DNA from: Hemiscyllium ocellatum
Taxonomy: Eukaryota
Reading direction: 5' to 3'
Assembly: GCF_020745735.1 (NCBI RefSeq)
Contig: NC_083419.1
Coordinates: forward strand, 28,542,085-28,606,084
Length of the DNA: 64,000 bases
Shown: piece by piece, positions 3,630 to 48,260 of the stretch
Position numbering within the stretch: the stretch's first letter is position 1
Layout of the letters: every line of letters begins with the position of its first letter
Made by a program: the position numbers and the translations under genes
The notes under the pieces: generated by a model
Database searches by the model: none
The model's input: the letters and a program-made list of their open reading frames with translations, nothing else
Told to the model about the DNA's origin: nothing

Positions 3630-4108
3630 GCAAAAGTGAGGACTGCAGATGCTGAAAACCAGAGTCTAGATTAGAGTGAGTAAAAAGTGAGGTCTGCAGA
3701 TGCTGGAGATCAGAGCTGAAAATGTGTTGCTGGTTAAAGCACAGCAGGTTAGGCAGCATCCAAGGAACAGGAAATTCGACGTTTTGGGCCAGAGCCCTTC
3801 ATCAGGAATGAGGAATGCTCTCCTCATTCCTGATGAAGGGCTCTGGCCCAAAACGTCGAATTTCCTGTTCCTTGGATGCTGCCTAACCTGCTGTGCTTTA
3901 ACCAGCAACACATTTTCAGCTCTAGATTAGAGTGATGCTGGAAAAGCACAGCAGGTCAGGCAGCATCGGAGGAGCAGGAAAATCGACGTTTCCAGTAAAA
4001 CGTCAGGAATTCCTGACGAAGGGCTTTTGCCGGAAACGTCGATTTTCTTGCTCCTCGGATGCTGCCTGACCTGCTGTGCTTTTCCAGCACCACTCTAATC
4101 TAGACTCT
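3630..4108. mobile_element. Two nested palindromic Penelope-derived mini-elements
   Basis: Inner hairpin ~3680-3920 with TSD TCTAGATTAGAGTGA (3665-3679 / 3921-3935); outer element with TSD GACTCTTAT(G/A)ACATTAG (3613-3629 / 4103-4119). Confidence 0.85.
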
Positions 4109-5432: not shown

Positions 5433-6222
5433 CAGAATTGAACCTGGACTGTTAACATTATTTTGAAACTCACAGAACCATATCAGCAAATCAGTCTCTC
5501 AGGTATGAAACATTAAAAAAAGTGACCCTCTTTTTCTTTTAACATGATTTCCACAAAGAACCACAGTGATTGTAGACAGTCTTGTCACATCCTCGCAGGA
5601 TTACACAAGGTCCGTCATCAAATACTGCACTGATTACAGCAGTTTCATGGACATGGCTACAGTCATTTGTTTTTAATCTCACCGATCAATTCTGACCCCC
5701 TCCAGCACTTAGAACAGCTTCTCTCAACTCACGTGGTTCCCAGGATGAGCTACAAGGTGAGGTCAACAAAGCTGAAGTTGTTCTGGCTGGAAAGGAGATT
5801 AAGGGGGATTTGATGATGAGTTGTCTAAGACTATGACAACTTTAGATAAAGTAGTCAAAAAAAATTTTTTTTTCTCCACCAGTAGTCAAACAGGAGACAT
5901 CAGTGATGAAAGGAAAAGGAAATTGAATGGGCTTTTGTTGGGAATAAACTTACAAGATGACAGCCATAGAGTGGATCAATGTGACTGACTGGAATGTTCC
6001 ACAGAGAGCTGGAATGGGCTTGATTAGTTATACCATTTTAAGAGGCCATGTGACCTATGTCCTGCAAAAGCAGGAAAATGCTACGGCTGATCAAAAAGCA
6101 GATTGCTGCTGATGTCCGAATTATGAAAATGCTGGGAGGCAGGAGTGTGCAAAACAACAGAGTGGCCAGCATCTATATAGAGAGAAAATAGTTCATGCTT
6201 CAGGCCTGTGACCTTTCATTAG

Positions 6223-13212: not shown

Positions 13213-13441
13213 GAGGAAAAAGTGAGGTCTGCAGATGCTGGAGATCAGAGCTGAAAATGTGTTGCTGGAAAAGCGCAGCAGGTCAGGCAGCATCCAAGGA
13301 ACAGGAAATTCGATGTTTCGGGCATAAGCCCTTCATCAGGAAGCTGATTCCTGGTGAAGGGCTTATGCCTGAAACGTCGTATTTCCTGTTCCTTGGATGC
13401 TGCCTGACCTGCTGCGCTTTTCCAGCAACACATTTTCAGCG
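13213..13441. mobile_element. Palindromic Penelope-derived mini-element
   Basis: ~95-bp inverted arms; TSD CTGCATAAGTAATAT (13194-13208 / 13442-13456). Confidence 0.85.
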
Positions 13442-13795
13442 CTGCATAAGTAATATGGCTACAAGAGCAATGCTGAGGTTTTCTATGTTGATCCACCTCC
13501 TAATTTGTCAAAATCTTTTGCAGATGGTAGAAAGACATGCCAGAACTAGAATGGAAAGCACTTCACTTGCCTGGAAGGTGCTGTTCCAGCAACACAAAGT
13601 CCCACTTTAGACAAAGAAGCCTATCACTTTAAACAATCATTCTTCCATCCACAGTGCACCCTGGGTACAAGATGCATTGCAACAATTCACCAAGGCTCAA
13701 AAACATTATAAAAACAACAGCAGCAAAAGTATGGAAAAAAAAATGACCTACAAAGTCCCATCCAAGTCACACACCAACACAACTGACATATATTG

Positions 13796-17500: not shown

Positions 17501-20500
17501 ATTTACACGAATCTAGTGTGCCACTTTCTAAATAAAACTATTTTCCCTAATCAAAGTGCAGGCAAATCAATTCAATCTCACTCACTAGCACGCCACCCGA
17601 GACCAGCTGATTGGTCAGAAATAGATTGAATTTCAGGCCTGCTGTATTGCACAACGCAAGTTGGTCAAGAAATACCTTTGCTAATGGGAACCAAGATATC
17701 TCTCATAAAAGTTCTGTACCTTTTTCAGTATTTTGCTTGGTGATTCTGATAAATATTTATAGGGCGAATATGATTTTCCCAATGGAGGCTCTCTCCTTCT
17801 GCAATGGGATGGTGGCAATCTGACTTTAGAAGGAGAAACTAAAACAGCACCCCCTGGTGGAGAAAAATTAAGATTAGGATGTAACAATTATTACGTGGTT
17901 AGACTTAGACTTAGACTTACAGTGTGGAAACAGGCCCTTCGGCCCAACAAGTCCACACCGACCCGCCGAAGCGCAACCCACCCATACCCCTACATTTACC
18001 CCTTACCTAACACTATGGGCAATTTAGCTTGGACAATTCACCTGACCCGCACATCTTTGTGACTGTGGGAGGAAACCGGAGCACCCGGAGGAAACCCACG
18101 CAGACACGGGGAGAACGTACAAACTCCACACAGTCAGTCGCCTGAGTTGGGAATTGAACCCGGGTCTACAGGCGCTGTGAGGCAGCAGTGCTAACCACTG
18201 TGCCACCGTGCCGCCGTGCCGCCCAGTCTAAATGGATTTGTAGAGGAGATTCAGGCTGTTGTATACCATCCCTGTCCTTCCACTTACACATACCACCTAC
18301 AATTTCAGCAGTAAAAGCTCACAAAACTTTTAAATTACAATTACCTTGAAGTATACATTTTGTTCAAAAAAATTATATAATCCTTTTGAAGGCTGCATAG
18401 GCTGTATTAACTGATCACTTTTTCCAGACCTATGTAAAATTGGTTATTGTTCTGCAACAGTTGGTTTGCTGCAATTTTAAACATTCTTGTTTTCCGTATC
18501 TCCAGTTTACTACATTGCTGGCTTTCTGCATACTGTGAATAACTGATACAACCCACAGTCGTAAAAAAAATTAAACCTTTTTGATTACCTTGATGTGTTA
18601 CAGAATGTATGGAAATTTTCATTTGAGTTCAGGTTTTAATAACTCATAATTACATTAATTTTTCTTTGCAAACTTATTTATTCTTGAAGCACTCAGCCCT
18701 TCTCTCCTTCTGGTCTACATTTCTGATTATTCTGGCATCTTCCCACATCTTGATTTAATTTCTGCTTATTCTCTAGATGGTGGGAATTAAGAATCCCACT
18801 AATAAAATTAAATTTATTCATTAAACTGAGCCATGGTTAATTAATGCCAGTCAGTATGAATATATTTACTTTCCATACCGTAATGCTGAGCAGCAAGAAA
18901 CACATACATGGTGCAGCTGGAATAAACAAAGAGGGGAGCAATTTGGGGTAAACAGGAGAAAAAAGGTGCAACAGGGAAAGCTAGAACATATTTTATAATG
19001 GATTTCTCCAAAACAGTACACAAAGCTGCCTTCTAATCTAGTAAAAAGTACATGTCAAAACTCTTATTACAATTATTAATTTCCACAACTTTTGAAATCG
19101 CACTTAAGGGTAACAAAAAAAAAAGCTGAATCTCTACAATTATTATAGACAAATGCTATTTGTACCAAATTAAGAAATGCTTATACCAATAGCTGGTGTG
19201 GTCAGATCATGATGTGTTCTCAGCGTTCCACCCGTTGACTTAAGTTTTGGTGTAGGCAGCCTCCCACCTGCATCAGAATCAAGCTCAGAATGTCCATTTG
19301 ATTCTGAATTTACTGTTGCGTCACCTCGTACTTTTACAGGGACAGGATCACTAGAAATTTAATTAAATTAATATTATTCCATTCTTACAGCAATTAGTTA
19401 ATTCGGTTGAAGAAAAAAGGATCTTGTGCAGAAGAAAATTAAACTGTACAAATAATCAGCTTTCTAAAATGGTGCAGAAAGCAAAGTTTGTGAGAAGATT
19501 TGTAGCTCGGGTGCTCGTTGTTGTGGTTCTGTTCGCCGAGCTGGGAGTTTTTGTTGCAAACGTTTCGTCCCCTTTCTAGGTGACATCCTCAGTGCTTGGG
19601 AGCCTCCTGTGCAGTGCTTCTGTGCTGATTCCTCTGGCATTTATACTGGTTTGAATCTGCCGCTTCCGGTTGTCAGTTGCTGTCCGCTGCAGTGGCTGGT
19701 ATATAGGGTCTAGGTCGATGTGTCTGTTGATAGAATTTGTGGATGAGTGCCATGCCTCTAGGAATTCCCTGGCTGTTCACTATTTGGCTTGCCCTATAAT
19801 AGTGGTGTTGTCCCAATCGAATTCATGTTGTTTGTCATCTGAGTGTATGGCTACTAAGGATAGCTGGTCGTGTCGTTTCGTGGCTAGTTGGTGTTCATGG
19901 ATGCGGGTTGTTAGCTGTCTTCGTGTTTGTCCTATGTAGTGTTTTGTGCAGTCCTCGCATGGGATTTTGTACACTACGTTGGTTTTGCTCATGCTGGGTA
20001 TCGGGTCCTTTGTCCTGGTGAGTTGTTGTCTGAGCGTGGCTATTGGTTTGTGTGCTGTTATGAGTCCTAGTGGTCGCAGCAGTCTGGCTGTCAGTTCAGA
20101 AGTACTCCTGATGTATGGTAGTGTGGCCAGTCCTTTGGGTTGTGGCATGTCCTCATTTCGTTGTCTTTCCCTTAGGCATCTGTTGATGAAATTGCGCGGG
20201 TATCCGTTTTTGGTGAATACCTTGTATAGGTGTTCTTCTTCCTCTTTTTGTAGTTCTGGTGTGCTGCAGTGTGTTGTGGCCCTTTTGAATAATGTCCTGA
20301 TGCAACTTCGTTTGTGTGTGTTGGGATGATTGCTTTCATAGTTCAGGACTTGGTCTGTATGGGTGGCTTTTCTGTATACCTTCGTGGTGAATTCTCCGTT
20401 CGGTGTTCTCTATACCATCACGTCTAGAAATGGGAGCTGGTTGTCCTTTTCATCCTCTCTCGTGAATCGATTCCTGTGAGTGTAGCATTGATTATCCGGT

Positions 20501-23500
20501 GTGTGTTCTCTATTTCTGTGTTTTTAATGATTACAAAGGTGTCGTCCACGTATCTGACCCATAGTTTGGGTTGTATTTGCGTTAAAACTGTTTTTTCTAA
20601 CCTTTGCACTACTGCTCCTGCTATGGGTCTGGAGATCGGTGAGCCCATGGGTGTTCCGTTGATTTGTTCATATATCTGGTTGTTGAATGAACATAGAACA
20701 TAGAACAATACAGCACAGAACAGGCCCTCGGCCCACGATGTTGTGCCAAACATCTATCCTAGATTAAGCACCCATCCATGTACCTATCCAATTGCCACTT
20801 AAAGGTCGTCAATGATTCTGACTCTACCACTGCCACGGGCAGCGCATTCCATGCCCCCACCACTCTCTGGATAAAGAACCCACCCCTGACATCTCCCCTA
20901 TACCTTCCACCCTTCACCTTAAATTTATGTCCCCTTGTAATACTCTGTTGTACCCGGGGAAAAAGTTTCTGACTGTACTCTATCTATTCCTCTGATCATC
21001 TTATAAACCTCTACCAAGTCACCCCTCATCCTTCGCTGTTCCAACGAGAAAAGGCCGAGAACTCTCAACCTGTCCTCGTACGACCTATTCTCCATTCCAG
21101 GCAACATCCTGGTAAATCTTCTCTGCACCCTCTCCAAAGCTTCCACATCTTTCCTAAAGTGAGGCGACCAGAACTGCACACAGTACTCCAAATGTGGCCT
21201 AACCAAAGTCCTGTACAGCTGCAACATCACTTCACGACTCTTGAATTCAATCCCTCTGCTAATGAACGCTAATACACCATAGGCCTTCTTACAAGCTCTA
21301 TCCACCTGAGTGGCAACTTTCAAAGATCTATGTACATAGACCCCAAGATCCCTCTGTTCCTCCACCTGACTAAGAACTCTACCGTTAACCCTGTATTCCG
21401 CATTCTTATTTGTTCTTCCAAAATGGACAACCTCACACTTAACAGGGTTGAACTCCATCTGAATGTGAAGTGTGTTGTGAGGCACAGGTCCAGTAGTTTA
21501 AGTATGCCGTCTTTGTAAATAGGTTCAACGTCCTGTTGTCTATTATGTATGTCCAGCAGTTGGATATTGTTTCTCTGGCTAGGGTTTTGTCAATAGAGGT
21601 GAACAGTGCTGTTACATCGAATGAGACCATGGTTTCTTCCTTGTCTATGTGTACATTTCTGATGATGTCTGAAGACAGCTAACAACCTGCATCCATGAAC
21701 ACCAACTAGCCACAAAACGACACGACCAGCTATCCTTAGTAGCCATACACTCAGATGACAAACAACATGAATTCGATTGGGAAGACACCACTATTATAGG
21801 GTAAGCCAAACAGAGAACAGCCAGGGAATTCCTAGAGGCATGGCACTCATCCACAAATTCTATCAACAGACACATCGACCTAGACCCTATATACAGGCCA
21901 CTGCAGCGGACAGTAACTGACAACCGGAAGCAGCAGATTCAAACCACTATAAATGCCGGAGGAATCAGCACAGAAGCGCTGCACAGGAGGCTCCCAAGCA
22001 CTGAGGATGTCACCTAGAAAGGGGACGAAACGTTTGCAACAAAAACTCCCAGCTCGGCGAACAGAACCACAACAACGGTGCAGAAAGCAGCTACGAAAGA
22101 AAGTTTCTATTGAGCAGACAATTCATTTAAAGCACCACTTGTGCCAGCTAAGTTTTATTTCTGTAAAAGTTTAAATTTAAAGTGAAATGGGGACTATTCA
22201 CACTTTGAGATTTATCCAAAATCCCACAGATAAACTTTTTATTCACCCCTCAAGTACATGTAGAAAACATAGAAAATTACAGGTCTACACTAGATCAGCA
22301 GTACAGTTACAACACAGTACAGAGAAGATAGAACGTACAACAATACAGCACAGTACAGGCCCTTCAGCCCTTAATATTGTCCCAATCTTATATCCTATTC
22401 TAAAGATTAAACTAACCAACATACCCTTCATTGTACTAATTTCCATGTGCTTATCCAAGAGCAGTTAACAATTATTATAAATAGTTCTAACATGGGGAAA
22501 TAAAGACAAAATTTAAGGACTGCTCATTACCTATACATTTGAAAGGGGTCAAAATGAGTATTGACTATATAAAAGGCTGTGATAAAATTTCATTTGTAAG
22601 TTTTGGGACTCATTTTAATACACATTCCCAAATAACCCCTTCTCCAGTTAATACATCAATACCTTTCAATAACTGTTTCCACTTCTGCATTTCTCTCAAC
22701 CTCAACTTCCTTCTCAGCTTCATCATTTTGGCTTTGGTTGCCTTCTGGTAGTTCTGGTGCACATGGCTTCTCTTCCTCATCATTCCATGCCAATTTCCTG
22801 CTGACTGGAAGGGTAGGAACATCTAACATACTATTGTCTCCTATACCATTATATTTTGCTCTGGCTTTCTCTGGTGATGCTTGTGCTGCAGAATCAGACT
22901 GCAGTTCTTGTTTTGTTATGCTGGAAGTATTTGGTATTTCTGTTGTTCTAAAAATATTAAACAAATATCCTCTAAGCCAGCAATATTGAGATATGTGTAC
23001 ATCATTTAACTGGAAAGACTTACAGCAATATTTACATGTGATTCATGAAATGTATTAGATTCAACAAAGCCACTAATTGTATAAATAAGAGCATTTAACA
23101 TTAGACAATTTTGAAAATTATTCAAAATTACATATGCAAACTCTTAGTGCTGCAGAAGAAAGCATTGTGGGGCTCTAAATATGATGGATAAATTTTAATC
23201 CACACTTGCTATTGTAAGTGAAAATATGACTGCTGCCAAAGGGTTTCGACTACTTCCTGCTGCGACAGCATATGTTAAAAATAAGTTCCAAAATATGTAC
23301 TAATCTACTGATTCATACTTGCAATTATTTTATACACACAATCAAATACAGAAACTGCTCGAAAGGCTCACCGGGCTGGCAGCATCCATTAAGAAATCAG
23401 AGCTAACGTTTTGGGTGGAGCGACCCTTCCTCAGAAGGTTCTGCTGAGTTTTTCCAGCGGTTTCTGTTTTTGTTTGATTTCCACCATCCACAGTTCTTTT

Positions 23501-26500: not shown

Positions 26501-29500
26501 CGACACAAAGCCCGGTGTCGACAGCACATATGTGCAGACACACATGCATGCATAGCACGGCAAGAACACTGCCGCATGCACAGAACGGCATTAAGATTTT
26601 GGGACACACATTGGCACATGCTGGAATCATGATATTGCCATTTTAGAAAATGATGGAACCATCCAGACATTCAGTTCTCAAAGGTCAATCCTTAGTACCT
26701 GGTTCGCATTTAAAGCCCTCCTCTAACATATGCTTAAAATCTAACTCTTTGACCAAGCATTTGCCACTTCCAGCCCTTCAACTGGCTCAGTTTTTTTTAA
26801 AAACTAATTGCATTCCTGTGTATCTGGGGATGATTTCTTATTATATAATTAATGGTAGGCCTTGGGTAGCATTGTAGAACAGAGGGACCTAACTTCACAT
26901 CCAGCCTTATTAAGAATTCCTATTTTCTTAAATCAAATAAGCAAAGATAAACGTACATAAAAATGATGAAACACATAAAAGAACACAGGAGCGAGAAGGG
27001 GACATACAACCCATCAAGTCTTTTTCATCATTGCTATGAACATGGTTGATCTTGGGCCTCAACTCCATTTTCCTACCCACTCCTCACAACCCTTAGTTCC
27101 AAATTCTCAACCAGCCCTAAATATACTCAATGATGGCACATCCACAACACTTTGGGGTAGTAAATCCCAGAGATTTGCAAACCTCCGAGTGAAGAATTTC
27201 TCCATACCGATCCTAAATGATCAGATGCTTGTCATCAAACCATGCTCCCTTGTTCTAGATTTCTCAGCGTCAGGAAAATTTGTCTTAATACTCACAATGT
27301 TAAGCCCTTAATAATTTTGAATGTTTCAATGAGATCACTTCTCATTATTCTAACTGTCAGGGAATATAGACCCATAATTCAGCACAGGACAACCAACTCA
27401 TCCCATAAGGCCATACGACGTAGGAGCAGAATTTAATCCATTCAGCCCACTGAATCAGCTCCCCCATTTGATCATGGCTGATATGTCTGTCAATCCCATT
27501 CTCCAGCCTTTTCCCTGTAACCTTTGAACGCCTTATTAATCAAGAACCTATCTATCTGTGTCTTAAATACACCCAATGACTTGGCCTCCACAGCCTTCTG
27601 TGAAACTGAGTTCCGCAGATTCATCACATTCCCAGAAATCAATCTAGTCAATCTTTGCAGTACTGCCTCTTATGCAAGTCCTCCTCCTAGGCATTCACAT
27701 GGATAGTGGATGATTTTCTTCTGCTCCTTTGTTGTGGGTCCTATGATGACTAAATAGTCCAATGCTGGATATGTATCCCTTGCGTCAGATGTTGCTCGAA
27801 GACGTAGGAGTGTGATGCTCAGATTTTTGTATGCATCTTCCAGTGTTTGTATTGATTTCCATCTGGACATTGCATCTTTTCTCCAATTTGGGCAGTCTTG
27901 AATTGTGGTCTCATCAAAGCCCTGTACAATTGTAGCAAGCCTTCTTTATTCTTGTAATCCAATCCTTTTGTAATAAAAGACAAAAATAGAAATTGCTGGA
28001 AAAGCTCAGCAGGTCTGGCAGCATCAGCAGAGAGAAATCGGAGTCAACGTTTTGGGTTTTGGGTCAAGTGACCCTTCTTCACAACGTTAACTCTGATTTC
28101 TCTCCACAAATGCTGCCAGACCTGCTGAGCTTTTCTAGCAATTTCTATTTTTGTCTCTGATTTACAGCATCTGCAGTTCTTTCCGTTTCTTTTGTAATAA
28201 AAGCCAATATGCATTTTACTCCCTTATTGCTTGCTGTACCAACATGCGAACTTTCCGTGCTTGTTGTACAAGTATACCTCTGAAAACCAACATTTAAAGT
28301 TCCATTCGTTCAAAAAGTGTTTTCTATTCTTACAAAAATCAGTAACCTCACAATTACCCATACCAAACTCAGTTCAGACATTGTTACCGACTCATCCATA
28401 TATGTATCTTTCTTTACAGGCAATGTATACCCCTCAGTGCTTGCATTCCCTGCTAGCTTTGAATCAACAAGTGTAGATTTGTTTGACTACCTCTTCACCT
28501 AAGTTATTAACACAATTTATGAATAGCTGAAGCCCCTGCCAAACTCCACTGTTCCAAAGATCAATATCCATACGTTGAATTAGGCAGCAAAAAACTTTCA
28601 GAGATTTACAGATATTTTATTAAATCCATAGTTCAGCAAAAACATCAATTTCCACCTTTTCTTTCTGGAGAAGAAACAAACTTTTATTTTAAAAGAAATA
28701 AATTAACAAATTAAAAAACCTGTCCCCTGGGGTCCCATGACCTTAGACAAAACTCACCACCAAAAGGTAGAAACTGAGGGGGGCTAAATCAAAATATCAA
28801 GGGAAGGGAAAATAATGCATCCCAGTCCCCCCCAAGCACACAGAAAAACCAGCTTCTATTTTATTTTCAGTACCCACCACAAATCACCCCACTAATTAAA
28901 TAATCCAATAACAAATTACATTCTCTGCCCGCCAGGGGCAGTATCGCAATAACAAAGAAAGAAGAGCGGACAAAACAAGGCAGGGGACAAAATCAAATTA
29001 GAGTCAGTGGGGAAAATTGATTCACTGTAGCCACCATGGTGACCTCCTACTCAAAAAGACTTCAAGGTTAGCAGTGGGGACAGTGTGTTGCTCTCAGAGG
29101 ATATGGAGAGAATCCAGATTTTCCTTCAACATTTTAATAATAGGTCTTTGTATTTTCTAATCAATGTTGTTACATATTTGTTTCGAGCAATTGGGACACA
29201 GAACTTGCATTTCTTACACTGACATCAGCCTGTCAACTTGAAAATGCCTCATTTATCCCCAACATCTCAGAAAGTATATAATGTATGAGCAGGTAGGGAA
29301 AGAGTTCAGTTTAGAGTTGCTTGACAAAGACTCAGCTAGCATGACTTTGACTAGATGTGAACTTGCAGTAAACAATGCAGGTGCTGGAGGCAAGGGAGTG
29401 GTTTAACAAGGTGAAGAACGTCTATTGTATCATACCAGATGGCTTATTCTTTATTGTTGATGCTCGCTGATTGTAACGGTCACCCAATCAATGTAGATGT

Positions 29501-32500
29501 CGCCTTATTTGGATGTTGCTCCCTGTAAGTAACGATATAATTCCTTAAGAATCTGCTGCTCGAGAGAAGACAGAGAACTCATGTCCTTGTGTACATGGGC
29601 AATCTCTCTCTCTCCAGGACTCGGAATAAAGGTGAAGAGGAGCCATACTGTGTCTAATGGTTTGCTTCAACTGATACGGAAATGTGACGACAAGATTGGG
29701 GTGCCAGGTAGGAGTCCAAACGAATAGTTACAATCAGATTGTATCCAGTGATTGCCCAGAACATCAGGATCTCAAGACGGACAGGCCCACAAGGTAAACC
29801 TCAGTCCCTCTCGATATTCCTTTGTGTTGGATACTGTCTCCTCATTCAATCACTTTATATTCTACGGACTCCTCGAATGGTAATTAGTTCAGTCGAGAGA
29901 CACAGTTTCGTAAACGCACTGACAAATAGGGGTTCTGGTCCCCTGGGCTTAATAAGGGTTCGAGTTCCTGGACATATAGAGTAAGAAAAGGGGTTTCAGT
30001 CACCATGAGAAGTAAAGTGAGAAAGGGGTTCGAGTCCCCAAGGTAGAAAGGGATTAAAGTCTCTGAGGTAAAAGGGGGTTAAAGTCCTCTAATGGTGAGG
30101 TTTGACGCTCTGAAAAAAAAATTTAGAAATCAGGAACTTCAAAGAAAAACTTCTAAACAAAATTTGGTACTCCTTAAAGTTATTGCCTCTATCCCCCGCA
30201 CTCCCCTTAGAAGTACCTTTAGGACAACATGGGAAAAGGAAAAACAAAAGTGGAACCCGTCTGCTCGGATCCCGACACTGAAGTGCATTGACTGCCAGGG
30301 AAGCTTTGTCCGGGTTTTTATTGTGGGAGTCTCAGTTTCTGGGCTGTGGACTTGACTTGGCGAGTCTTTTTTCTGGGGAAGGGGAGTGGCTTGTACTGCA
30401 GCGCCATGTGGTCCACTGCGAATGTTTTATTTTTTAAGTGTAATTTCATCAAGAGGATGCGAGAAAAAAAAATTAGATATGCTGAAATTATGGTTGCACT
30501 AATACTTGGATTGAAAAATGAAGTTTCAATATAAATTATGCCATACTGAAAGTGTTTGATATTTAAATATTTTGGTTTGTTAAAATATTGGTTCAGAAAA
30601 TCCTTTTAAGTAACTGTCTTGCTTTATTTGAATTAGGATCTCAATTCAATGTGTTTTGTGGACGATGTAATAGGGCAGATTTTGTTTTTATATTATTATA
30701 CAACATTATGTCTTTTTAAAAATTATCAAACTTGTAACTTTAAAACAAACTGATCGAGGACCTTGAGCCCTGATTTGTTTGAAAACCTACAATGCCTGTT
30801 TCAAAAAACTAGTGTGTCACTGGTCATGCTTTAGCCAGATGAGAGTATTGTATTAAGATGTTTCTGCTGTTTTTTAATGTAGACTTTTCACAAAGAGTGC
30901 ATTTTAATTTTGATGTTTTGTTAAGATTTTAGAGGATATTAGAACTCAAGGCTGAGCTGTTTAAGTTCTGTCAATTATTCTTAAGACTTCATTGCCCCCC
31001 TTCATATTGCAAATTCAAAGAATGTTAATTCCTACCAAAGTTGCCACTTTAATTCTGACTATTTTATTTGTGAAGTTTCATTTGGAGAACATATTTTAAT
31101 ATATTCTGCATTTGTTTTCAATGAATATTTGAGATTTAAATCTGAACTGAAACTGCACTTCAATGGCTAACGCACAGGAGACATTTTGTTATTTTCTTGC
31201 TGTTCTAGTTTTTGAAATACTTTTCCTGACAGCTTTCACGTTAGCCAAGTATTAATTTGTCAAAGGAAAATAATCTTTGAATAAGCTGAATGAGGTCCCC
31301 CGCGGGTTTGATTTTAGGACCATTGATTATTGTTTATTAAGTGACTGAATTGTTTCAGCAGTACAATTTAGAAGCTTATGGACTGTACAAAACTTGATAA
31401 TGTCATAAATAGTGAACAGATTTCAAGACAACTGAAAATGTTGAAGTAGGCAGGCACAATTTAATGTGGTTAAATGTGTGGCTGTCTTCATACTAATAAC
31501 CACCTTGGCAAGGAAGGAACGAGGGGAAATGCAAAGATACTTTCAGCAGCTAACATCGTCTCTGGAGTTTCTCCATCCACAGGTAAGGCGCGCCTTCGGA
31601 CCACCACCCAACCCTCTACAACCTGATTCAACAGATTTAATGGTAAGGTCCTAGGGAGTGTTGCTAAACAAAGATCTTGGAGTGCAGGTTCATAGCTCCT
31701 TGAAAGTGGAGTCGCAGGTAGATAGGACAGTGAAGGAGGAGTTTGGTATGCTTTCCTTTATTGGGCAGAGTATCGAGTACAGGAGTTGGGAGGTCATGTT
31801 GCGGCTGTACAGGATAGTGGTTAGGCCACTGTTTGAATATTGCATGCAATTCTGGTCTCCTTCCTGTCGGACAGATGTTGTGAAACTTAAAGGGTTCAGA
31901 AAAGATTTAAAAGGATGTGGCCAGGGTTGGAGGATCTGAGCTACAGGGAGAGGCTGAACAGGCTGGGGCTGTTTTCCGTGGAGCATCGGAGGCTGAGGGG
32001 TGACCTTATAGAGGTTTACAAAATTATGAGGGGCATTGATGGGATAAATAGACAAAGTCTTTTCCCTGGGGTCAGGGAGTCCAGAACCAGAGGGCATAGG
32101 TTTAGGGTGAGAGGGGAAAGATATAAAAGGGACCTAAGGGGCAATGTTTTCACGAAGAGAGTGATAAGTATATGGAATGAGCTGTTAAAGGATGTGGTGG
32201 AGGCTGGTACAATTGCAACATTTAAGAGGCATTTGGATGGGTAAATGAATAGGAAGGGTTTGTAGGGATATGGGCCAGGTACTGACAGGTGGGACTAGAT
32301 TGGGTTGGGATATCTGGTCGGCATGGACAGATTGGACCGAAGGGTCTGTTTCCATGCTGTACATCTCTATGACTCTATGAATTCCCCAGTCATGAGCACA
32401 AAAAGTGAAGCTAACAACAGTGAAGAGGAGTTCTGTACGCTTTTTGTCAGTGGCCTTCCTATGGACATTAAGCCAAGTGAGCTTTACCTTCTCTTTTGAC

Positions 32501-35500
32501 CATTTAAGGGATATGAAGGTTCACTGATCAAACTGACATCAAAACAGCCAGTTGGCTTTGTTACATTTGACAGCAGAGTGTGAGCAAAAGCAGCAAAGAA
32601 TGCTGCCTTCATCTAGCCTGCAGCTGCACCTGCCGCACTTCATGATCAGATGCGCTGGTATCCCCCATCTGAAGCATCTCGGGAAGGATGACTGTCTTGT
32701 CAATTTTGTTAAGTTTTTAACTGCCCTAATCCAAGAATTCAGATTTCTCCTTGGAGTGATGCAGAAGGACAGACTGGATTTTGTTTCCAGGTTGGACTTC
32801 ACTGAAGGAGATTTTGGATAACTAGCTCATTTCCACTCGACTTGGAGAGGGTGGAGTGATCACTGACGACTGTGGGTTTAAGAATTCTACTGGTGAAGTT
32901 TCTTCCATATGGGAGGATCCTGCAGATTCTATTTGCTGCATGGACTGGTAATTGTTGCTGTTATAATCAGCTAGGAGAAAGTGAGGACTGCAGATGCTGG
33001 AGATCAGAGCTTAAAAAATGTGTTGCTGGAAAAGCGCAACAGGTCAGGCAGCATCAAAGGAACAGGAGAATCAACGTTTCGGGCATAAGCCCTTCTTCAG
33101 GAATGAGGAGGGTGTGCCAAGCAGGCTAAGATAAAAGGTAGGGAGGAGGGGCGCTGGGAATACGATAGGTGGAAGGAGGTTAAGATGAGGGTAATAGGAC
33201 CACAAGAGATTAACGCAGATCTCTCCAGCTTTCTCATTTCCCCTCCCCCCACCTTTTCTCAGTCCCAACCCTCAGACTCAGCACCACCTTCTTGACCTGC
33301 AATCTTCTTCCTGACCTCTCCACCCCCACCCCCTCTCCGGTCTATCACCCTCACCTTGACCTCCTTCCACCTATTGTATTCCCAGCGCCCCTCCCCCAAG
33401 TCCCTCCCCCTTACCTTTTATCTGAGCCTGCTTGGCACACCCTCCTCATTCCTGAAGAAGGGCTTATGCCCGAAATGTCGATTCTCCTGTCCCTTTGATG
33501 CTGCCTGACCTGCTGCACTTTTCCAGCAACACATTTTTAAGTTGTTATAATCATTGCATGTTGTGTGTCAATAACCTGTTTAAGTACTGGCAGTAAGATT
33601 CTTATGAAGAAGGAGGTAGTGTCATCTAGGTGGTTATCATGGAATGACAAAGGAGGGAATGAGAAAGTGTATAAGCAGGTAGGGAAAGAGTTAAGTTTAG
33701 GATTGCTTGACAAAGGCTCAGCTAGCATGACTTTGACTAGATAAGAATTTGCAGTAAACAGTGAGGTGCTGAAAGCAAGGGTAGTGGTTTAAACGAGGTG
33801 AAGAACATCTATTGTGTAATGCTGGGTGGCTTAATCTTTATTGTTGATGCTTGCTGATTGAAACAGTCAGGAGAAAGTGAGGACTGCAGATGCTAGAGAT
33901 CAGAGCTGAAAATGCACAGCAGGTCAGGCAGCATCCAAGGAGCACGAGAATCGAAGTTTCAGGCATGAGCTTCTTCAGGAATGAGGAGAGTGTGCCAAGC
34001 AGGCTAAGATAAAAGGCGGGGAGGAGGGACTTGGGGGAGGGGCATTGGAAATGCGATAGGTGGAAGGAGGTTAAGGTGAGGGTGATAGGCCGGAGTGGGG
34101 GTGGGAGCGGAGAGGTCAAGAAGAAGATTGCAGGTTAGGAAGGTGGTGCTGAGTTCGAGGGTTGGGACTGAGACGAGGTTGGGGGGGGGGGGGGAAAATG
34201 AGGAAACTGGAGAAGTTTGAGTTCATCCCTTGTGGTTGGAGGGTTCCTAGGCGGAAGATGAGGCGCTCTTCCACCAGCCGTCGTGTTGCTATGGTCTGGC
34301 GATGGAGGAGTCCAAGGACCTGCATGTCCTTGGTGGAGTGGAGGGGGGAGTTGAAGTGTCAAGCCATGGGCTGGTTGAGTTGGTTGGTCTGGGTGTCCCA
34401 GAGGTGTTGTCTGAAACGTTCTGCAAGTAGGCGGCCTGTCTCCCCAATATCGAGGAGGCCACATCGGGTGCAGCTGATGCAGTAAATGATGTGTGTGGAG
34501 GTGCAGGTGAATTTGTGACGGATATGGAAGGATCCCTTGAGGGGAAGTAAGGGAGGAGGTGTGGGCACCTCAACTTCTCCACCCATCTCACCCACTCCAA
34601 CCTCTCACCCTTGGAACATGCAGCCCTCCACTCCCTCCATCCCAACCTCACTATCAAACTGGCAGACAAGGGAGGCGCGGTGGTAGTTTGGGGCACCAAT
34701 CTTTACACCGCTGAGCCTAAATGCCAGCTCACGGACACCTCCTCATACTGCCCCCTTGACCATGACCCCACCTTCCACCACCAAACATCATCTCCCAGAC
34801 CATCCATAACCTCATCTCCTCAAGGGATCTCCCATCGGCCGCCTCCAACCTCATAGTCCCACAACCCTGCACCGCCCATTTCTACCTCCTGCCCAAAATC
34901 CACAAACCTGACTGCCCCAGCCGACCCATTGTCTCAGCCTGCTCCTGCCCCACCGAACTCATCTCTGCATACCTCAACAGGTCCTATCCCCCTTAGTCCA
35001 AGAACTCCCCACCTACGTTCGGGACACCACCTCCACCTCCTCCATGATTTTCGCTTCCCCGGTCCCCAACTCCTTATCTTCACCATGGACATCCAGTCCC
35101 TGTACACCTCCATCCCCCATCACGAAGGACTTAAAGCCCTCCGCTTTTTCCTTTCCCGCCGTACAAACCAGTACCCTTCCACGGACACCCTCCTTCGATT
35201 GACTGAACTGGTCCTCACTCTGAACAACTTCTCTTTCCAATCCTCCTACTTCCTCCAAACCAAAAGAGTAGCCTTGGGTACCCGCATGGACCACAGCTAT
35301 GCCTGCCTCTTCATAGGATATATGGAACCGTCCATCTTCCACAGCTACATTAGCACCACCCCTCACCTTTTCCTCCACTACATCAATGACTGTATCGGCA
35401 CTACCTCGTGCTCCCACGAGGAGGTTGAACAGTTCACCCACTTTACTAACGCCTTCCACCCCGACCTCAAATTTACCTGGACCATCTCAGATTCCTCCCT

Positions 35501-38500
35501 TCCCTTCCTAGACCTCTCCATTTCTATCATGGGCGACCGAATCAACACGTACATTTACTATAAACCGACCGACTCCCACAGCTACCTAGACTACACCTCC
35601 TCCCACCCTGCCCCCTGTAAAAACGCCATCCCATATTTCCAATTCCTTCACCGCATCTCCGCCACTTCCCGCTCCTCCACCCTTGAGCCCTGCACCTCAA
35701 TCGTTACCAGGACAGAACCCCACTGGTCCTCGCCTACCACCCCACCAACCTCCATATACATCGTATCATCCGCCGTCATTTCCGCCACCTCCAAACAGAC
35801 CCCACCACCAGGGATATATTTCCCTCCCCTCCCCTATCAGCATTCCAAAAAGACCACTCCCTCCGTGACTCCCTCGTCAGGTCCACACCCCCCACCAACC
35901 CAACCTCCACTCCCGGCACCTTCCCCTGCAACCGCAAGAAATGCAAACCTTGCGCCCACACCTCCCCCCTTACTTCCCTCCAAGGCCCTAAGGGATCCTT
36001 CCATATCCGCCACAAGTTCACCTGCACCTTCACACACATCATTTACTGCCTCCGCTGCACCCGATGTGGCCTCGTCTACATTGGGGAGACAGGCCACCTA
36101 CTTGTGGAATGTTTCAGAGAACACCTCTGGGACACCCGGACCATACAACACAACCACCCCATGGCTCAACACTTCAACTCCCCTCCCACTCCAGCGAGGA
36201 CATGCAGGTCCATGGACTCCTCCATCGCCAGACCATAGCAACACGACGGCTGGTGGAAGAGCGCCTCATCTTCCCTGAGGAACCCTCCAACCACAAGGGA
36301 TGAACTCAGACTTCTCCAGTTTCCTCATTTCCCCTCCCCCCACCTTGTCTCAGTCCCAACCCTCGAACTCAGCACCACCTCCCTATCCTGCAATCTTCTT
36401 CCTGACCTCTCTGCCCCCACCCCCACCCCCACTCCGGCCTATCACCCTCACTTTAATCTCCTTCCACCTATCGCATTTCCAATGTCCCTTCCCCAAGTCC
36501 CTCCTCCCTACCTTTTATCTTAGCCTGCTTGGCACACTTTCCTCATTCCTGAAGAAGGGCTCATGCCCAAAACATTGTTTCAATCCAAGGAGCAGGAGAA
36601 TCAGTCACCCAATCAATGTAAATGTTGTTTTATTTGTATGCTGCTCCCTGTAAGTGATTATATCATTTCTTAAGAATCTGCTGTTTGAGAGAAGGCAGAG
36701 AACTCTCGTCCTTGTGTACATGGGCGATTGCACTCTCTCTCGGGCTCGGAATGAAAGGTGAGGAAGGTAGAGCTATACTGTGTCTGAGCCAGAAGGTACA
36801 GACTGTATATCTGAGTATTTGCTCCGATTGATACTGGAACGGGATGACACATTTACTCCCTGTCCATTAACCAATCCTTTATCCATGCTAACAGATGGCA
36901 TCGTCCACAGTGAACCCTTATTTGTGAGCAAGGTTTGGTGTAGCACTTTATGATTATTTTTGGAAAAGACAAACATAATTGATATATACTAATTATATTT
37001 TTTAAAAATGTCTCAGAATTTTGTCGTAAAGGATTACCATTTTTAAAACCAAGTTGACGTATTCTAATCAAATGAAGCTTTTCTAAGAGAATTGTTAAGA
37101 TTTCTTTAATGTTAGGTTCCAGCACCTATTATGTGACTGATGGAAAGCTAACTGACCTCGAGATCCTCATTTTCCCTCACTCCTTCCTTGTGATAGCAGT
37201 GGTACATTTACTGGCTTCTAGTTGGTTAGGACCATTCCAGAATCTAGGAAACATTGGAAGATGTAGCCACCTTTGCAGCAATTTCTTTTAAAACTCTGGA
37301 ATGCATGCCATCAGGTCCTGGTGATTTGTCAGATTTTAGTCCCTTGAATTCTCTTACTACCTCTCTGCTGATTTTAAATTATTTGATTTCATTACTCTTC
37401 TTATTCCCTGAATTATTCTCTGTTTCAGGTATATAATGCATGTCTTCTACCAAGTAGACTAAAAATATCTTTGTTCAATATACAAAAATTAAACTTGCCA
37501 CAATTTTTGTGACAAGCTCCAATATTTTCTTGCTTAATGTCATGTTCAGTAGTATACCTATTATTACTGGGTCCAGAAAACACTCCCACTAGTGTTTTGC
37601 AACCATTGTTATTGCTAATTTCCACCCATACTGATTCTGTTTCTTGATTTTCTGAGTTAAAATCCTTTTCTCCAAATGCATAATTTTACTTTCAGGGCTG
37701 CCTCTTTTCCATTTTTCCTGCCTTCTCTAAATATTGTATATTTAGAAGATTTATTTTCCATCTTTAATCATCATGGTTTATAGGATGAGCATCTCTAAAC
37801 CACTTTTCTCAATGTGTGTTGCCGTATTCGCATGCAGCAAGATCTGGACAAAATCCATGATGTGGAGGTGCTGGTGTTGGAATGGGGTGGACAAAGTCAG
37901 AAGTCACACAACACCAGGTTTTAGTCCAGATTTATCTGAAATCACAAGATTTCAGAATGCTGCTTCTTTGTCACTTCACCTGAAGTGCTCCAAAAGCTTG
38001 TGATTTCAAATAAGCTCGCTGAACTACAACTTGGTGTCATGTGACTTGTGACCAGACAAAATCCAAGCTCGAGCTGATAAGTGGCAAGTAATATTCACAC
38101 CGTACAAGTGTCAGACAATGACCATCTCCAATGAGAGAGAATATTACCTTATCTTCATGACATTAAACGGCATTACCATTGCTGAATATCCCACTATCAA
38201 TATCCTGGAAGTTACTATTGACCAGAAACTGATCTAGACAGCTACATAAATACTGTGACTATAACAACAAGTCAGAGAGAGTCATTCATCTGTCAACTCC
38301 CCAAAACCTGTCTACCATTAAGTCCACAAATCAGGGTTGTGATTATGAATACAATCCACATGCCTGGATGAGGACAGCTCCAACAATACTCATGAAGCTC
38401 AATACCATTCATCACACAACAACTAACTTGATTAATGCTCCAGCTTAAACATCCATTCACTCCACCACTGATGCACTGTAGCAGCTTTGCATACATTCTA

Positions 38501-46031: not shown

Positions 46032-46250
46032 GTTCCCGGCAATCCGGCCTCTTGACCCCCCAAGAGTTTCTCAGAACCTAGTGGCACCTCCCCCTTACTG
46101 AGATCCCCATGCCGCCACCCCCCCCCCCCCCGTATCCCTCCTGCCTGAGATGCTCAATACCACCAGGCCCCCACCCAGTCCACTAACCCCTCTGTTCCAC
46201 ACCCCACCCCCCGAGACTGAGATGCTTGGTGCCTTGTCCCCAATATCGCC

Positions 46251-48115
46251 GGTACCTCTCCCTCCCCCGCCCCCCTCACTGTCCCCTGTACCTCTCCCTC
46301 CCCCGCCCCCCCCTCACTGTCCCCTGTACCTCTCCCTCCCCCGCCCCCCCCCTCACTGTCCCCTGTACCTCTCCCTCCCCCGCCCCCCCCTCACTGTCCC
46401 CTGTACCTCTCCCTCCCCCGCCCCCCCCTCACTGTCCCCTGTACCTCTCCCTCCCCCGCCCCCCCCTCACTGTCCCCTGTACCTCTCCCTCCCCCGCCCC
46501 CCCCTCACTGTCCCCTGTACCTCTCCCTCCCCCCCCCCCCCTCACTGTCCCCTGTACCTCTCTCTCCCCCTCACTGTCCCCGGTATCTCCCTCCCCCGCC
46601 CCCCCCTCACTGTCCCCTGTACCTCTCTCTCCCCCGCCCCCCCCTCACTGTCCCCTGTACCTCTCTCTCCCCCGCCCCCCCCTCACTGTCCCCGGTACCT
46701 CTCTCTCCCCCGCCCCCCCCTCACTGTCCCCGGTACCTCTCTCTCCCCCGCCCCCCCCTCACTGTCCCCTGTACCTCTCTCTCCCCCGCCCCCCCCCTCA
46801 CTGTCCCCGGTACCTCTCTCTCCCCCGCCCCCCCCTCACTGTCCCCGGTATCTCCCTCCCCCGCCCCCCCTCACTGTCCCCGGTATCTCCCTCCCCCGCT
46901 CTCCCTCACTGTCCCCGGTATCTCCCTCCCCCGCCCCCCCCTCACTGTCCCCGGTACCTCTCTCTCCCCCGCCCCCCCCTCACTGTCCCCGGTACCTCTC
47001 CCTCCCCCGCCGCCCCCCCCTCACTGTCCCCGGTACCTCTCTCTCCCCCGCCCCCCCCTCACTGTCCCCGGTACCTCTCCCTCCCCCGCCCCCCCCCCCT
47101 CACTGTCCCCGGTACCTCTCCCTCCCCCGCCCCCCCCCCCTCACTGTCCCCGGTACCTCTCTCTCCCCCTCACTGTCCCCGGTATCTCCCTCCCCCGCCC
47201 CCCCCTCACTGTCCCCGGTACCTCTCTCTCCCCCTCACTGTCCCCGGTACCTCTCTCTCCCCCTCACTGTCCCCGGTATCTCTCTCCCCCGCCCCCCCCC
47301 TCACTGTCCCCTGTACCTCTCCCTCCCCCGCCCCCCCTCACTGTCCCCTGTACCTCTCCCTCCCCCGCCCCCCCCCCTCACTGTCCCCTGTACCTCTCCC
47401 TCCCCCGCCCCCCCCCTCACTGTCCCCTGTACCTCTCCCCCCCCCGCCCCCCCCCCTCACTGTCCCCTGTACCTCTCCCTCCCCCTCACTGTCCCCGGTA
47501 TCTCCCTCCCCCGCCCCCCCTCACTGTCCCCGGTACCTCTCTCTCCCCCTCACTGTCCCCGGTACCTCTCTCTCCCCCTCACTGTCCCCGGTATCTCCCT
47601 CCCCCGCCCCCCCTCACTGTCCCCTGTACCTCTCCCTCCCCCTCACTGTCCCCGGTATCTCCCTCCCCCGCCCCCCCTCACTGTCCCCGGTACCTCTCTC
47701 TCCCCCTCACTGTCCCCGGTACCTCTCTCTCCCCCTCACTGTCCCCGGTATCTCCCTCCCCCGCCCCCCCCTCACTGTCCCCGGTACCTCTCCCTCCCCC
47801 GCCCCCCCCTCACTGTCCCCGGTACCTCTCTCTCCCCCCTCACTGTCCCCGGTACCTCTCTCTCCCTCACTGTCCCCGGTACCTCTCTCTCCCCCTCACT
47901 GTCCCCGGTATCTCCCTCCCCCGCCCCCCCCCTCACTGTCCCCGATATCTCCCTCCCCCGCCCCCCCCCTCACTGTCCCCGATATCTCCCTCCCCCGCCC
48001 CCCCCTCACTGTCCCCGATATCTCCCTCCCCCGCCCCCCCCCTCACTGTCCCCGATATCTCCCTCCCCCGCCCCCCCTCACTGTCCCCGATATCTCCCTC
48101 ACTGTCCCCGGTAAC
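46251..48115. repeat. C-rich (G-rich on the minus strand) minisatellite, about 50 units of ~27-40 bp
   Basis: Tandem units such as GTACCTCTCCCTCCCCCGCCCCCCCCTCACTGTCCCC(T/G), with variable C runs and short variants. Confidence 0.97.
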
Positions 48116-48260
48116 CCCCCGCTGTCCGTCTCCTGACTCTGTTGCTTTCTCCGTTTCCTTGGCGAATACCGCGTCCTTCGCCACGCGCAGGCGCACTGGA
48201 CACGCGAACCTAATTTTGAACCAATCAGAAAGCAGAGCCTCTCTCTTAAAGGGCCCACCG
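48105..48260 (-). promoter_or_regulatory. Putative MDM1 promoter
   Basis: CpG-rich unique sequence with NRF1-type CGCGCAGGCGCA (48184-48195), CCAAT (48221), CHR-like TTTGAA (48215-48220), and RFX X-box-like GTTTCCTTGGCGAA (48153-48166) and GTCCCCGGTAAC (~48104-48115). Confidence 0.65.

What the first reader, a model, noticed from the sequence alone, without database searches (positions are those of the whole stretch)
32381..32905. RBPMS2 mRNA copy without a poly(A) tail, with a clean internal deletion at a probable microhomology
Seen: the intronless RBPMS2 frame runs from ATG 32392 through the RRM to AAGAATGCT, then continues directly into the C-terminal AF(T)[13 protein letters not shown] segment. 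No poly(A) or TSD is visible before the env stub. Inference: the junction ATGCT (32600-32604) could be shared by the parent codons N-A and H-A, a signature of reverse-transcriptase template switching. Established: RBPMS2/Hermes is a germ-plasm/Balbiani-body mRNA abundant in fish and frog oocytes, so it is a plausible co-packaged germline RNA.
Basis: partly seen in the sequence, partly recalled or inferred. Interest (0 to 1): 0.7.

Follow-up and report, generated by a model that had tools for sequence, protein, structure and literature searches.

The report
Shark retrovirus relic carrying RBPMS2 mRNA
This is a dead copy of an old retrovirus-like jumping element in a carpet shark genome that carries a spliced copy of the host gene RBPMS2 in place of its envelope gene, likely picked up once and then copied to hundreds of places after losing part of that cargo; such captures are known, though not at this copy number in the papers I read.

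Summary
The intronless, poly(A)-less RBPMS2 copy is real. It crosses five exon junctions of an eight-exon parent gene found in this genome and has four premature stops. It is not a lone retrocopy: it lies inside a decayed class I endogenous retrovirus (LTRs 29267-29692 and 33660-36849), replacing the end of pol and most of env. The template-switch signature sits at the mRNA/env junction (8-nt exact match TGGGAGGA, chance about 2e-4), not at the deletion. The 255-nt deletion ignores exon boundaries but has only 1 nt of microhomology: parent and undeleted copies read CATACT, not CATGCT. The deletion is a family mark: 288 dispersed matches to the junction (control 0). Undeleted and differently deleted sisters share the same capture junction, so one capture likely came first. 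Intermediates show later loss of pol, two more inserts of unknown origin and a change of LTR. Cargo decay is neutral. Closest known case: nectin3 replacing env in crocodilian CrocERV31 (six copies). The scan noted this family before in two other genomes. Verdict: new member of a known kind, notable for copy number and a well-preserved series of intermediates.

The parts
29263..29266 (+). left target-site duplication CATC (3 of 4 match to right copy)
29267..29692 (+). 5' LTR (type B; first two bases TC where sisters have TG; ends GACA)
   Evidence: 85.8% to the 3' LTR over 416 columns, K2P 0.161
29693..30130 (+). primer-binding-site-like stretch and leader, shared with type-B sisters; its first part also with a type-B element holding pol but no RBPMS2 (L243)
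   Evidence: tRNA identity not tested
30140..31210 (+). insert beta, AT-rich, source not found; nested in insert alpha
31211..31478 (+). 3' remnant of insert alpha (about 770 nt in less deleted sisters, inserted in the integrase zinc-finger coding stretch); source not found
31479..31631 (+). integrase remnants: end of zinc-finger region joined to the linker after the core (core deleted)
31632..31643 (+). start of the RBPMS2 5' UTR remnant (parent mRNA position about 149)
31644..32379 (+). later LINE fragment (CR1/L2-like, label recalled) inserted in the cargo 5' UTR; absent at this site from the other 29 loci
32380..32603 (+). RBPMS2 exons 1-4 (ATG 32392), 92% to parent, stops at codons 36 and 64
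32603..32604 (+). family-wide 255-nt deletion junction (parent mRNA 389|645), 1 nt microhomology
32604..32917 (+). end of RBPMS2 exon 6, exon 7 (natural stop 32710-32712) and first 208 nt of exon 8; 85% to parent; stops at codons 75 and 100
32910..32917 (+). 8-nt microhomology TGGGAGGA shared by the RBPMS2 3' UTR and env of cargo-free relatives: the 3' capture junction
32910..33648 (+). env stub (transmembrane anchor and tail), broken by an inverted-repeat Penelope-like insert at about 32971-33545
33649..33659 (+). polypurine tract AAAGGAGGGAA
33660..36849 (+). 3' LTR in two pieces (33660-33869, 36604-36849) split by a Penelope-like insertion with CAGTCA duplication
36850..36853 (+). right target-site duplication CATT

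Best explanation
The stretch is the cargo of a dead class I endogenous retrovirus copy: a spliced RBPMS2 mRNA stands in place of the end of pol and most of env, likely captured once by reverse-transcriptase template switching in the germ line of a carpet-shark ancestor, and the chimera likely went on replicating as an env-less LTR element while losing pieces. Shown: exon junctions, LTRs, target-site duplications, one shared capture junction with 8 nt of exact homology, subfamilies with no deletion, with this 255-nt deletion and with another 185-nt deletion, and at least 288 dispersed copies of this junction. Inferred: co-packaging in a particle; supply of Gag and Pol by helper proviruses for the pol-deleted forms; the order capture, 255-nt deletion, insert alpha, insert beta, loss of gag, change to LTR B; and that the 255-nt deletion was a reverse-transcription error without needed homology. 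The cargo most likely rode as a passenger.
For: Parent gene with eight GT-AG exons at G000:C181. All 30 loci share the 389|645 junction and sit in the same internal context. 135 exact 18-mers and 288 19-mers with at most one mismatch, controls 0. Of 14 intronless loci, 4 are undeleted and 10 carry a second deletion. 39 of 44 loci show the same mRNA/env junction; cargo-free relatives L169, L173, L174 read TGGGAGGA at the same place in env, and so does the parent 3' UTR; null 1.7e-4. 7 of 19 elements with both LTRs show exact 4-bp duplications; LTR pairs K2P 0.12-0.21. L241 carries this deletion together with RT and integrase core (Pfam RVT_1 and rve over cut-off). RT of a cargo-free relative is closest to 'p80' RT chains, E 3e-20, against 8e-7 for Ty3 (p80 = murine leukaemia virus type is recalled). 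Fixed differences from the parent are nearly all synonymous or UTR and shared by all three types; D6E (28/30), P38S (24/28), Y161* (20/27) mark only this subfamily; private changes 142 synonymous to 432 non-synonymous against sites 140 to 442.
Against: The tree of 54 copies is a star with no supported clade for the subfamily, so the order of events rests on nested structure, not on a tree. The 5' junction falls in a C-rich stretch where homology is weak, and a piece of RT coding sequence lies out of order behind the integrase linker, which a simple double switch does not explain. Y161* is present and absent in every structural class, so recombination among copies blurs the series. No intact helper was looked for or identified; the 30 best env loci were other families. 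Sources of alpha and beta were not found.
Confidence: 0.9

Rival explanations
1. The deletion was made at the moment of capture by a template switch at an ATGCT microhomology.
For: ATGCT is at the junction; several other sharks have H-A-A at the right end; the two ends have a loose similarity TGC(A/G)TT, offset 3 nt from the junction.
Against: Parent and 7 of 10 undeleted copies read CATACT, none CATGCT; left end continues A, not T; exact homology 1 nt, null 0.43. Undeleted copies share the capture junction, so the deletion came later. A switch inside TGC would leave one TGC; the copies have two.
Confidence: 0.04
2. The copy reflects an exon-skipped or cryptically spliced RBPMS2 transcript.
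For: The deletion is in frame (255 nt) and can be drawn with AT...AC ends, as can the second deletion.
Against: Ends lie inside exons 4 and 6; no GT-AG; ATTAAAT does not fit the minor-intron donor consensus (recalled); none of the shark RBPMS2 isoform proteins read has this junction.
Confidence: 0.02
3. A LINE-made processed pseudogene landed in an existing provirus and was then carried along.
For: A LINE fragment ends directly upstream at 32379; LINEs are abundant here.
Against: No poly(A); 3' end stops 208 nt into the UTR at an 8-nt match with env; viral sequence is replaced, not interrupted; the LINE is private to this copy.
Confidence: 0.02
4. The cargo helped the element: intact RBPMS2 protein or its UTR signals favoured replication in oocytes, as viral oncogenes do in somatic cells.
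For: Undeleted copies share no frame-breaking or non-CpG amino-acid change, so their source had an intact 194-aa frame. rbpms2a RNA is enriched in the zebrafish Balbiani body (PMC6049948, passages). Mutually shared parts (mRNA 149-389, 820-974) are kept in both deleted subfamilies.
Against: The most numerous subfamily has a cut RRM and mostly a shared stop; private changes are neutral; internal branches are too short to test selection. Env loss alone is a known correlate of ERV proliferation (recalled).
Confidence: 0.1

Closest known systems
Crocodilian CrocERV31 with nectin3 and CrocERV29 with KIT-ligand (Chong et al. 2014, PMC4299795; passages read)
   Same: Spliced host mRNA inside an ERV; in CrocERV31 it replaces env; several copies from one capture; cargo-free and deletion relatives exist.
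   Different: There six and nine copies with ORFs under purifying selection, named as spuma-like ERV4 consensus sequences; here a class I element, at least 288 copies, cargo broken before or during the main burst, neutral decay, two further inserts and an LTR change.
LTR-mediated retroposition (Tan et al. 2016, PMC5131818; passages and section 10 read), including maize Bs1 and human FAM8A1 in HERV-K as cited there
   Same: Retrocopy replaces internal ORFs, microsimilarity at the switch point (median 6 bp there, 8 here), no poly(A), further rounds as a non-autonomous element, possible multi-source chimera.
   Different: Copy numbers given there are small (Bs1 one to five); the word shark does not occur in its main text; transcription shown there, not here.
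Acutely transforming retroviruses with v-onc cargo (established knowledge, recalled; RSV and WEHV also discussed in PMC4299795)
   Same: Spliced host mRNA replaces viral genes; dependence on a helper.
   Different: Germ-line fixed, cargo not shown to be expressed or selected, an RNA-binding protein and not a growth signal.
Pxyfem, W-linked Masc retrocopies made by LTR template switch (PMC9674220; passages read)
   Same: Multi-copy LTR-borne partial copies of a gene tied to sex determination.
   Different: There they yield silencing RNAs; here copies are about 13% diverged from the parent, dispersed over many contigs, and no small-RNA data were seen.

Membership tests
LTR-mediated retrocopy (Tan 2016) | Spliced mRNA copy flanked by both LTRs | tested here: met
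LTR-mediated retrocopy (Tan 2016) | Internal ORFs replaced, not interrupted | tested here: met
   about 1.7 kb between integrase linker and env tail in cargo-free L169/L174 is absent in carriers
LTR-mediated retrocopy (Tan 2016) | Microsimilarity at the 3' switch point | tested here: met
   8 nt exact, null 1.7e-4
LTR-mediated retrocopy (Tan 2016) | Microsimilarity at the 5' switch point | tested here: inconclusive
   C-rich overlap with an RT-coding piece; relatives differ there; removed in this subfamily by a later deletion
LTR-mediated retrocopy (Tan 2016) | Secondary rounds as a non-autonomous element | tested here: met
   288 junction matches, dispersed, own LTR pairs and 4-bp duplications
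LTR-mediated retrocopy (Tan 2016) | Transcription from the LTR | tested here: inconclusive
   no run on record as RNA; contigs only
Class I (gamma/epsilon-like) ERV | RT closest to murine leukaemia virus type; RT, RNase H, integrase, env order | tested here: met
   in relatives L248 and L241; the window keeps only integrase and env stubs
Class I (gamma/epsilon-like) ERV | Placement in an RT tree with reference retroviruses; primer tRNA | not tested
   no tree with references built; no tRNA gene in the window
LINE-made processed pseudogene | Poly(A) tail and duplication flanking the mRNA copy | tested here: not met
Functional retrogene or v-onc-like cargo | Intact frame under purifying selection | tested here: not met
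   four premature stops; neutral private changes in all three types; intact frame inferred only for the source of undeleted copies
RBPMS2 splice isoform | Deletion ends at exon boundaries or splice signals | tested here: not met

The most novel reading that the evidence does not exclude
The element collected germ-line mRNA pieces three times (RBPMS2, alpha, beta) because they carry oocyte localisation or stability signals that put its RNA into the germ plasm; each capture would then have raised its copy number, making this a retroelement that hitch-hikes on Balbiani-body transport.
Probability: 0.08. Interest if true: 0.8.

Novelty: new member of a known kind. Interest (0 to 1): 0.45.

Why it matters
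It is a fossil series of retroviral gene capture in a vertebrate germ line with the donor gene, cargo-free virus relatives, undeleted carriers and several derived forms all in one genome. It shows that one capture can yield hundreds of processed pseudogenes without LINE action, which matters for retrocopy counts and for mapping RBPMS2 reads in these sharks. It also marks RBPMS2 mRNA as likely present where the virus replicated. It does not show a new mechanism or a function for the cargo.

Tried and rejected
Search for the sources of inserts alpha and beta: all 22 alpha candidates were scored and every locus examined lies in the family; for beta only 40 of 588 and 40 of 231 candidates were scored and those fetched were family copies, so a source may be unscored. 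Neither matches the 200 kb around RBPMS2 (beta and the 3' part of alpha; 5' part of alpha) and beta has no phage match (little relevance). Top 30 env loci by Pfam TLV_coat were unrelated families. Tree of 54 copies on 370 non-CpG sites: star, no order. Expression: no RNA holder listed; runs guessed to be RNA hold low-depth junction contigs but may contain DNA, so nothing is concluded. Absolute age: passages of PMC10587355 gave no per-year rate; not dated in years. Minor-intron origin of the deletions considered and rejected (donor consensus recalled). Literature: 9 searches; none listed a paper on RBPMS2 retrocopies or an RBPMS2-carrying ERV in sharks; RBPMS does not occur in the main text of PMC13320880 (passages); supplements and repeat libraries such as Repbase were not seen and could hold this family.
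Full report
Observation. The window holds an intronless RBPMS2-like frame from ATG 32392 to a natural stop at 32710-32712, with premature stops at codons 36, 64, 75 and 100. The best protein hit is a bamboo-shark RBPMS2 at 88%. No A run longer than 2 follows the junction.

Parent. A search with the missing middle part of the protein found the parent at G000:C181. It has eight exons over 111 kb, all seven introns GT-AG, and encodes 194 residues identical to P0139, a record named for two hemiscylliid sharks. The window copy crosses five exon junctions and is 92% and 85% identical to the mRNA left and right of the deletion. The deletion removes mRNA 390-644, 255 nt, from 7 nt before the end of exon 4 to 97 nt into exon 6; it cuts the RRM short. 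It is not a splice isoform.

Microhomology. The left end reads AATGC|ATT and the right end CATAC|TGC, giving 1 nt of overlap. Seven of 10 undeleted copies also read CATACT, none CATGCT; the other three are mutated or deleted there. One nt or more is expected in 43% of random deletions of this mRNA.

Surroundings. The copy lies between two LTRs, 29267-29692 and 33660-36849 (the latter split by a later insertion), 85.8% alike, with a polypurine tract and a 3-of-4 target-site duplication. Upstream are integrase stubs; downstream an env transmembrane stub. A LINE fragment at 31644-32379 is private to this copy.

Family. The DNA search gave 565 candidates, 40 scored, the 39 others at 82-86%. All 30 fetched share the deletion junction. 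Pattern counts give 135 exact and 288 with at most one mismatch, controls 0; the window itself is too mutated to match, and 13 of the 30 fetched match the exact pattern, so about 300-600 copies is my estimate. A smaller group keeps the middle of the gene: 53 matches from 90 candidates including the parent; of 14 intronless loci first fetched, 4 are undeleted and 10 have a different 185-nt deletion with 2 nt of overlap; 8 exact matches to that junction. Among 19 elements with both LTRs, K2P is 0.12-0.21 and 7 show exact 4-bp duplications. Contigs from coded organisms B and C bridge the deletion junction and the mRNA/env junction, so the family is older than this species.

Capture. Cargo-free relatives with pol and env were found through the integrase zinc finger. 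In three of them env reads TGGGAGGA exactly where carriers switch from the RBPMS2 3' UTR, which also reads TGGGAGGA at mRNA 967-974; chance of 8 nt is 1.7e-4. The same junction is seen in 39 of 44 loci of all three types; the other five are truncated or deleted there. On the 5' side undeleted carriers join mRNA position about 92 to a piece of RT coding sequence in a C-rich stretch; that piece lies behind the integrase linker, out of order, which suggests more than two switches. RT of a relative is closest to p80 RT chains in the PDB, so class I (virus identity of p80 recalled).

Order of events (inferred from nesting). Env-bearing virus; capture with intact cargo; in one branch the 185-nt deletion; in the other the 255-nt deletion plus a 5' deletion joining the integrase linker to mRNA 149. 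L241 has this cargo with RT and integrase core still present. Then insert alpha in the zinc-finger stretch, insert beta within alpha, loss of gag and the 5' part of alpha, and finally LTR B with its leader, also seen on a cargo-free pol element. The window is of the last type. The tree is a star with terminal branches near 0.07, so the steps were close in time, and scattered alleles point to recombination between copies.

Selection and age. Fixed differences between copies and parent are nearly all synonymous or in UTRs and shared by all types; I read them as later changes in the parent. D6E, P38S and Y161* mark the deleted subfamily only. Private changes are neutral in all three types (100:309, 118:321, 142:432 against sites 140:442). 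Copies carry T157, shared with whale shark and hemiscylliids, and A64 (C in 30 of 50, the rest likely CpG decay), where hemiscylliids have V. The capture therefore likely falls within carpet sharks before the hemiscylliid A64V change. No date in years is given.

Known cases. Tan et al. 2016 (PMC5131818; passages, section 10) describe the mechanism and its marks. Chong et al. 2014 (PMC4299795; passages) report nectin3 replacing env in six CrocERV31 copies and KIT-ligand in nine CrocERV29 copies, both under purifying selection. rbpms2a RNA is enriched in the zebrafish Balbiani body (PMC6049948; passages). Nine searches listed no paper on this shark family. Two earlier unchecked notes of this scan describe it in other genomes; they agree but are not evidence.

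Verdict. Real, well explained, a new member of a known kind. The deletion is a lineage mark without a homology signature; the capture junction is the mechanistic evidence. High copy number and the series of intermediates give moderate interest, 0.45.

Noticed in passing
window 30140-31478; L240, L242, L261-L273: Two AT-rich inserts (alpha about 770 nt, beta about 1070 nt nested in alpha) travel with the deleted subfamily; they look like captured host UTR or intron pieces but no source was found.
   Followed up: partly
L241 (G000:C50:29081001-29091000, minus strand): A carrier of the same deletion that still has decayed gag-like, RT, RNase H and integrase core sequence; env replaced by the cargo.
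   Followed up: partly
L251, oriented position 3723-3786: A second small piece of RBPMS2, matching exon 7 from its first base to the stop codon, is inserted in insert beta of this copy.
   Followed up: no
L178, oriented 5592-5682: A piece of RT coding sequence lies out of order between the integrase linker and the cargo in undeleted carriers.
   Followed up: partly
L283: A second partial cargo start (mRNA 149-320) and integrase linker sit inside the 3' LTR of this copy.
   Followed up: no
L042 and L043 (G000:C61, 160 kb apart): Two undeleted copies with near-identical matches and flanks, likely a segmental duplication or assembly duplicate.
   Followed up: no
parent mRNA 390-644 and 634-818: Both family deletions can be drawn with AT...AC ends; no minor-intron donor consensus, probably chance.
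   Followed up: partly
P0001 residues 174-221: The C-terminus of this database isoform matches many repeat copies in the parent locus, likely a LINE-derived annotation artefact.
   Followed up: no
window 19516-19922 and 21671-22077: 407-nt inverted repeat, 97% complementary, 1748 nt apart, around LINE-like sequence.
   Followed up: no
window 46100-48150: Long 38-nt tandem array that gives open frames of 650-720 codons on both strands.
   Followed up: no
window 32971-33545, 33870-36605, 3712-3923, 13246-13444: Many Penelope-like fragments (label recalled from motifs) with palindromic or inverted arrangement; two hit this LTR element.
   Followed up: no
G000: Younger env-bearing ERV families with long open frames (1551 candidates), unrelated to this family.
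   Followed up: no
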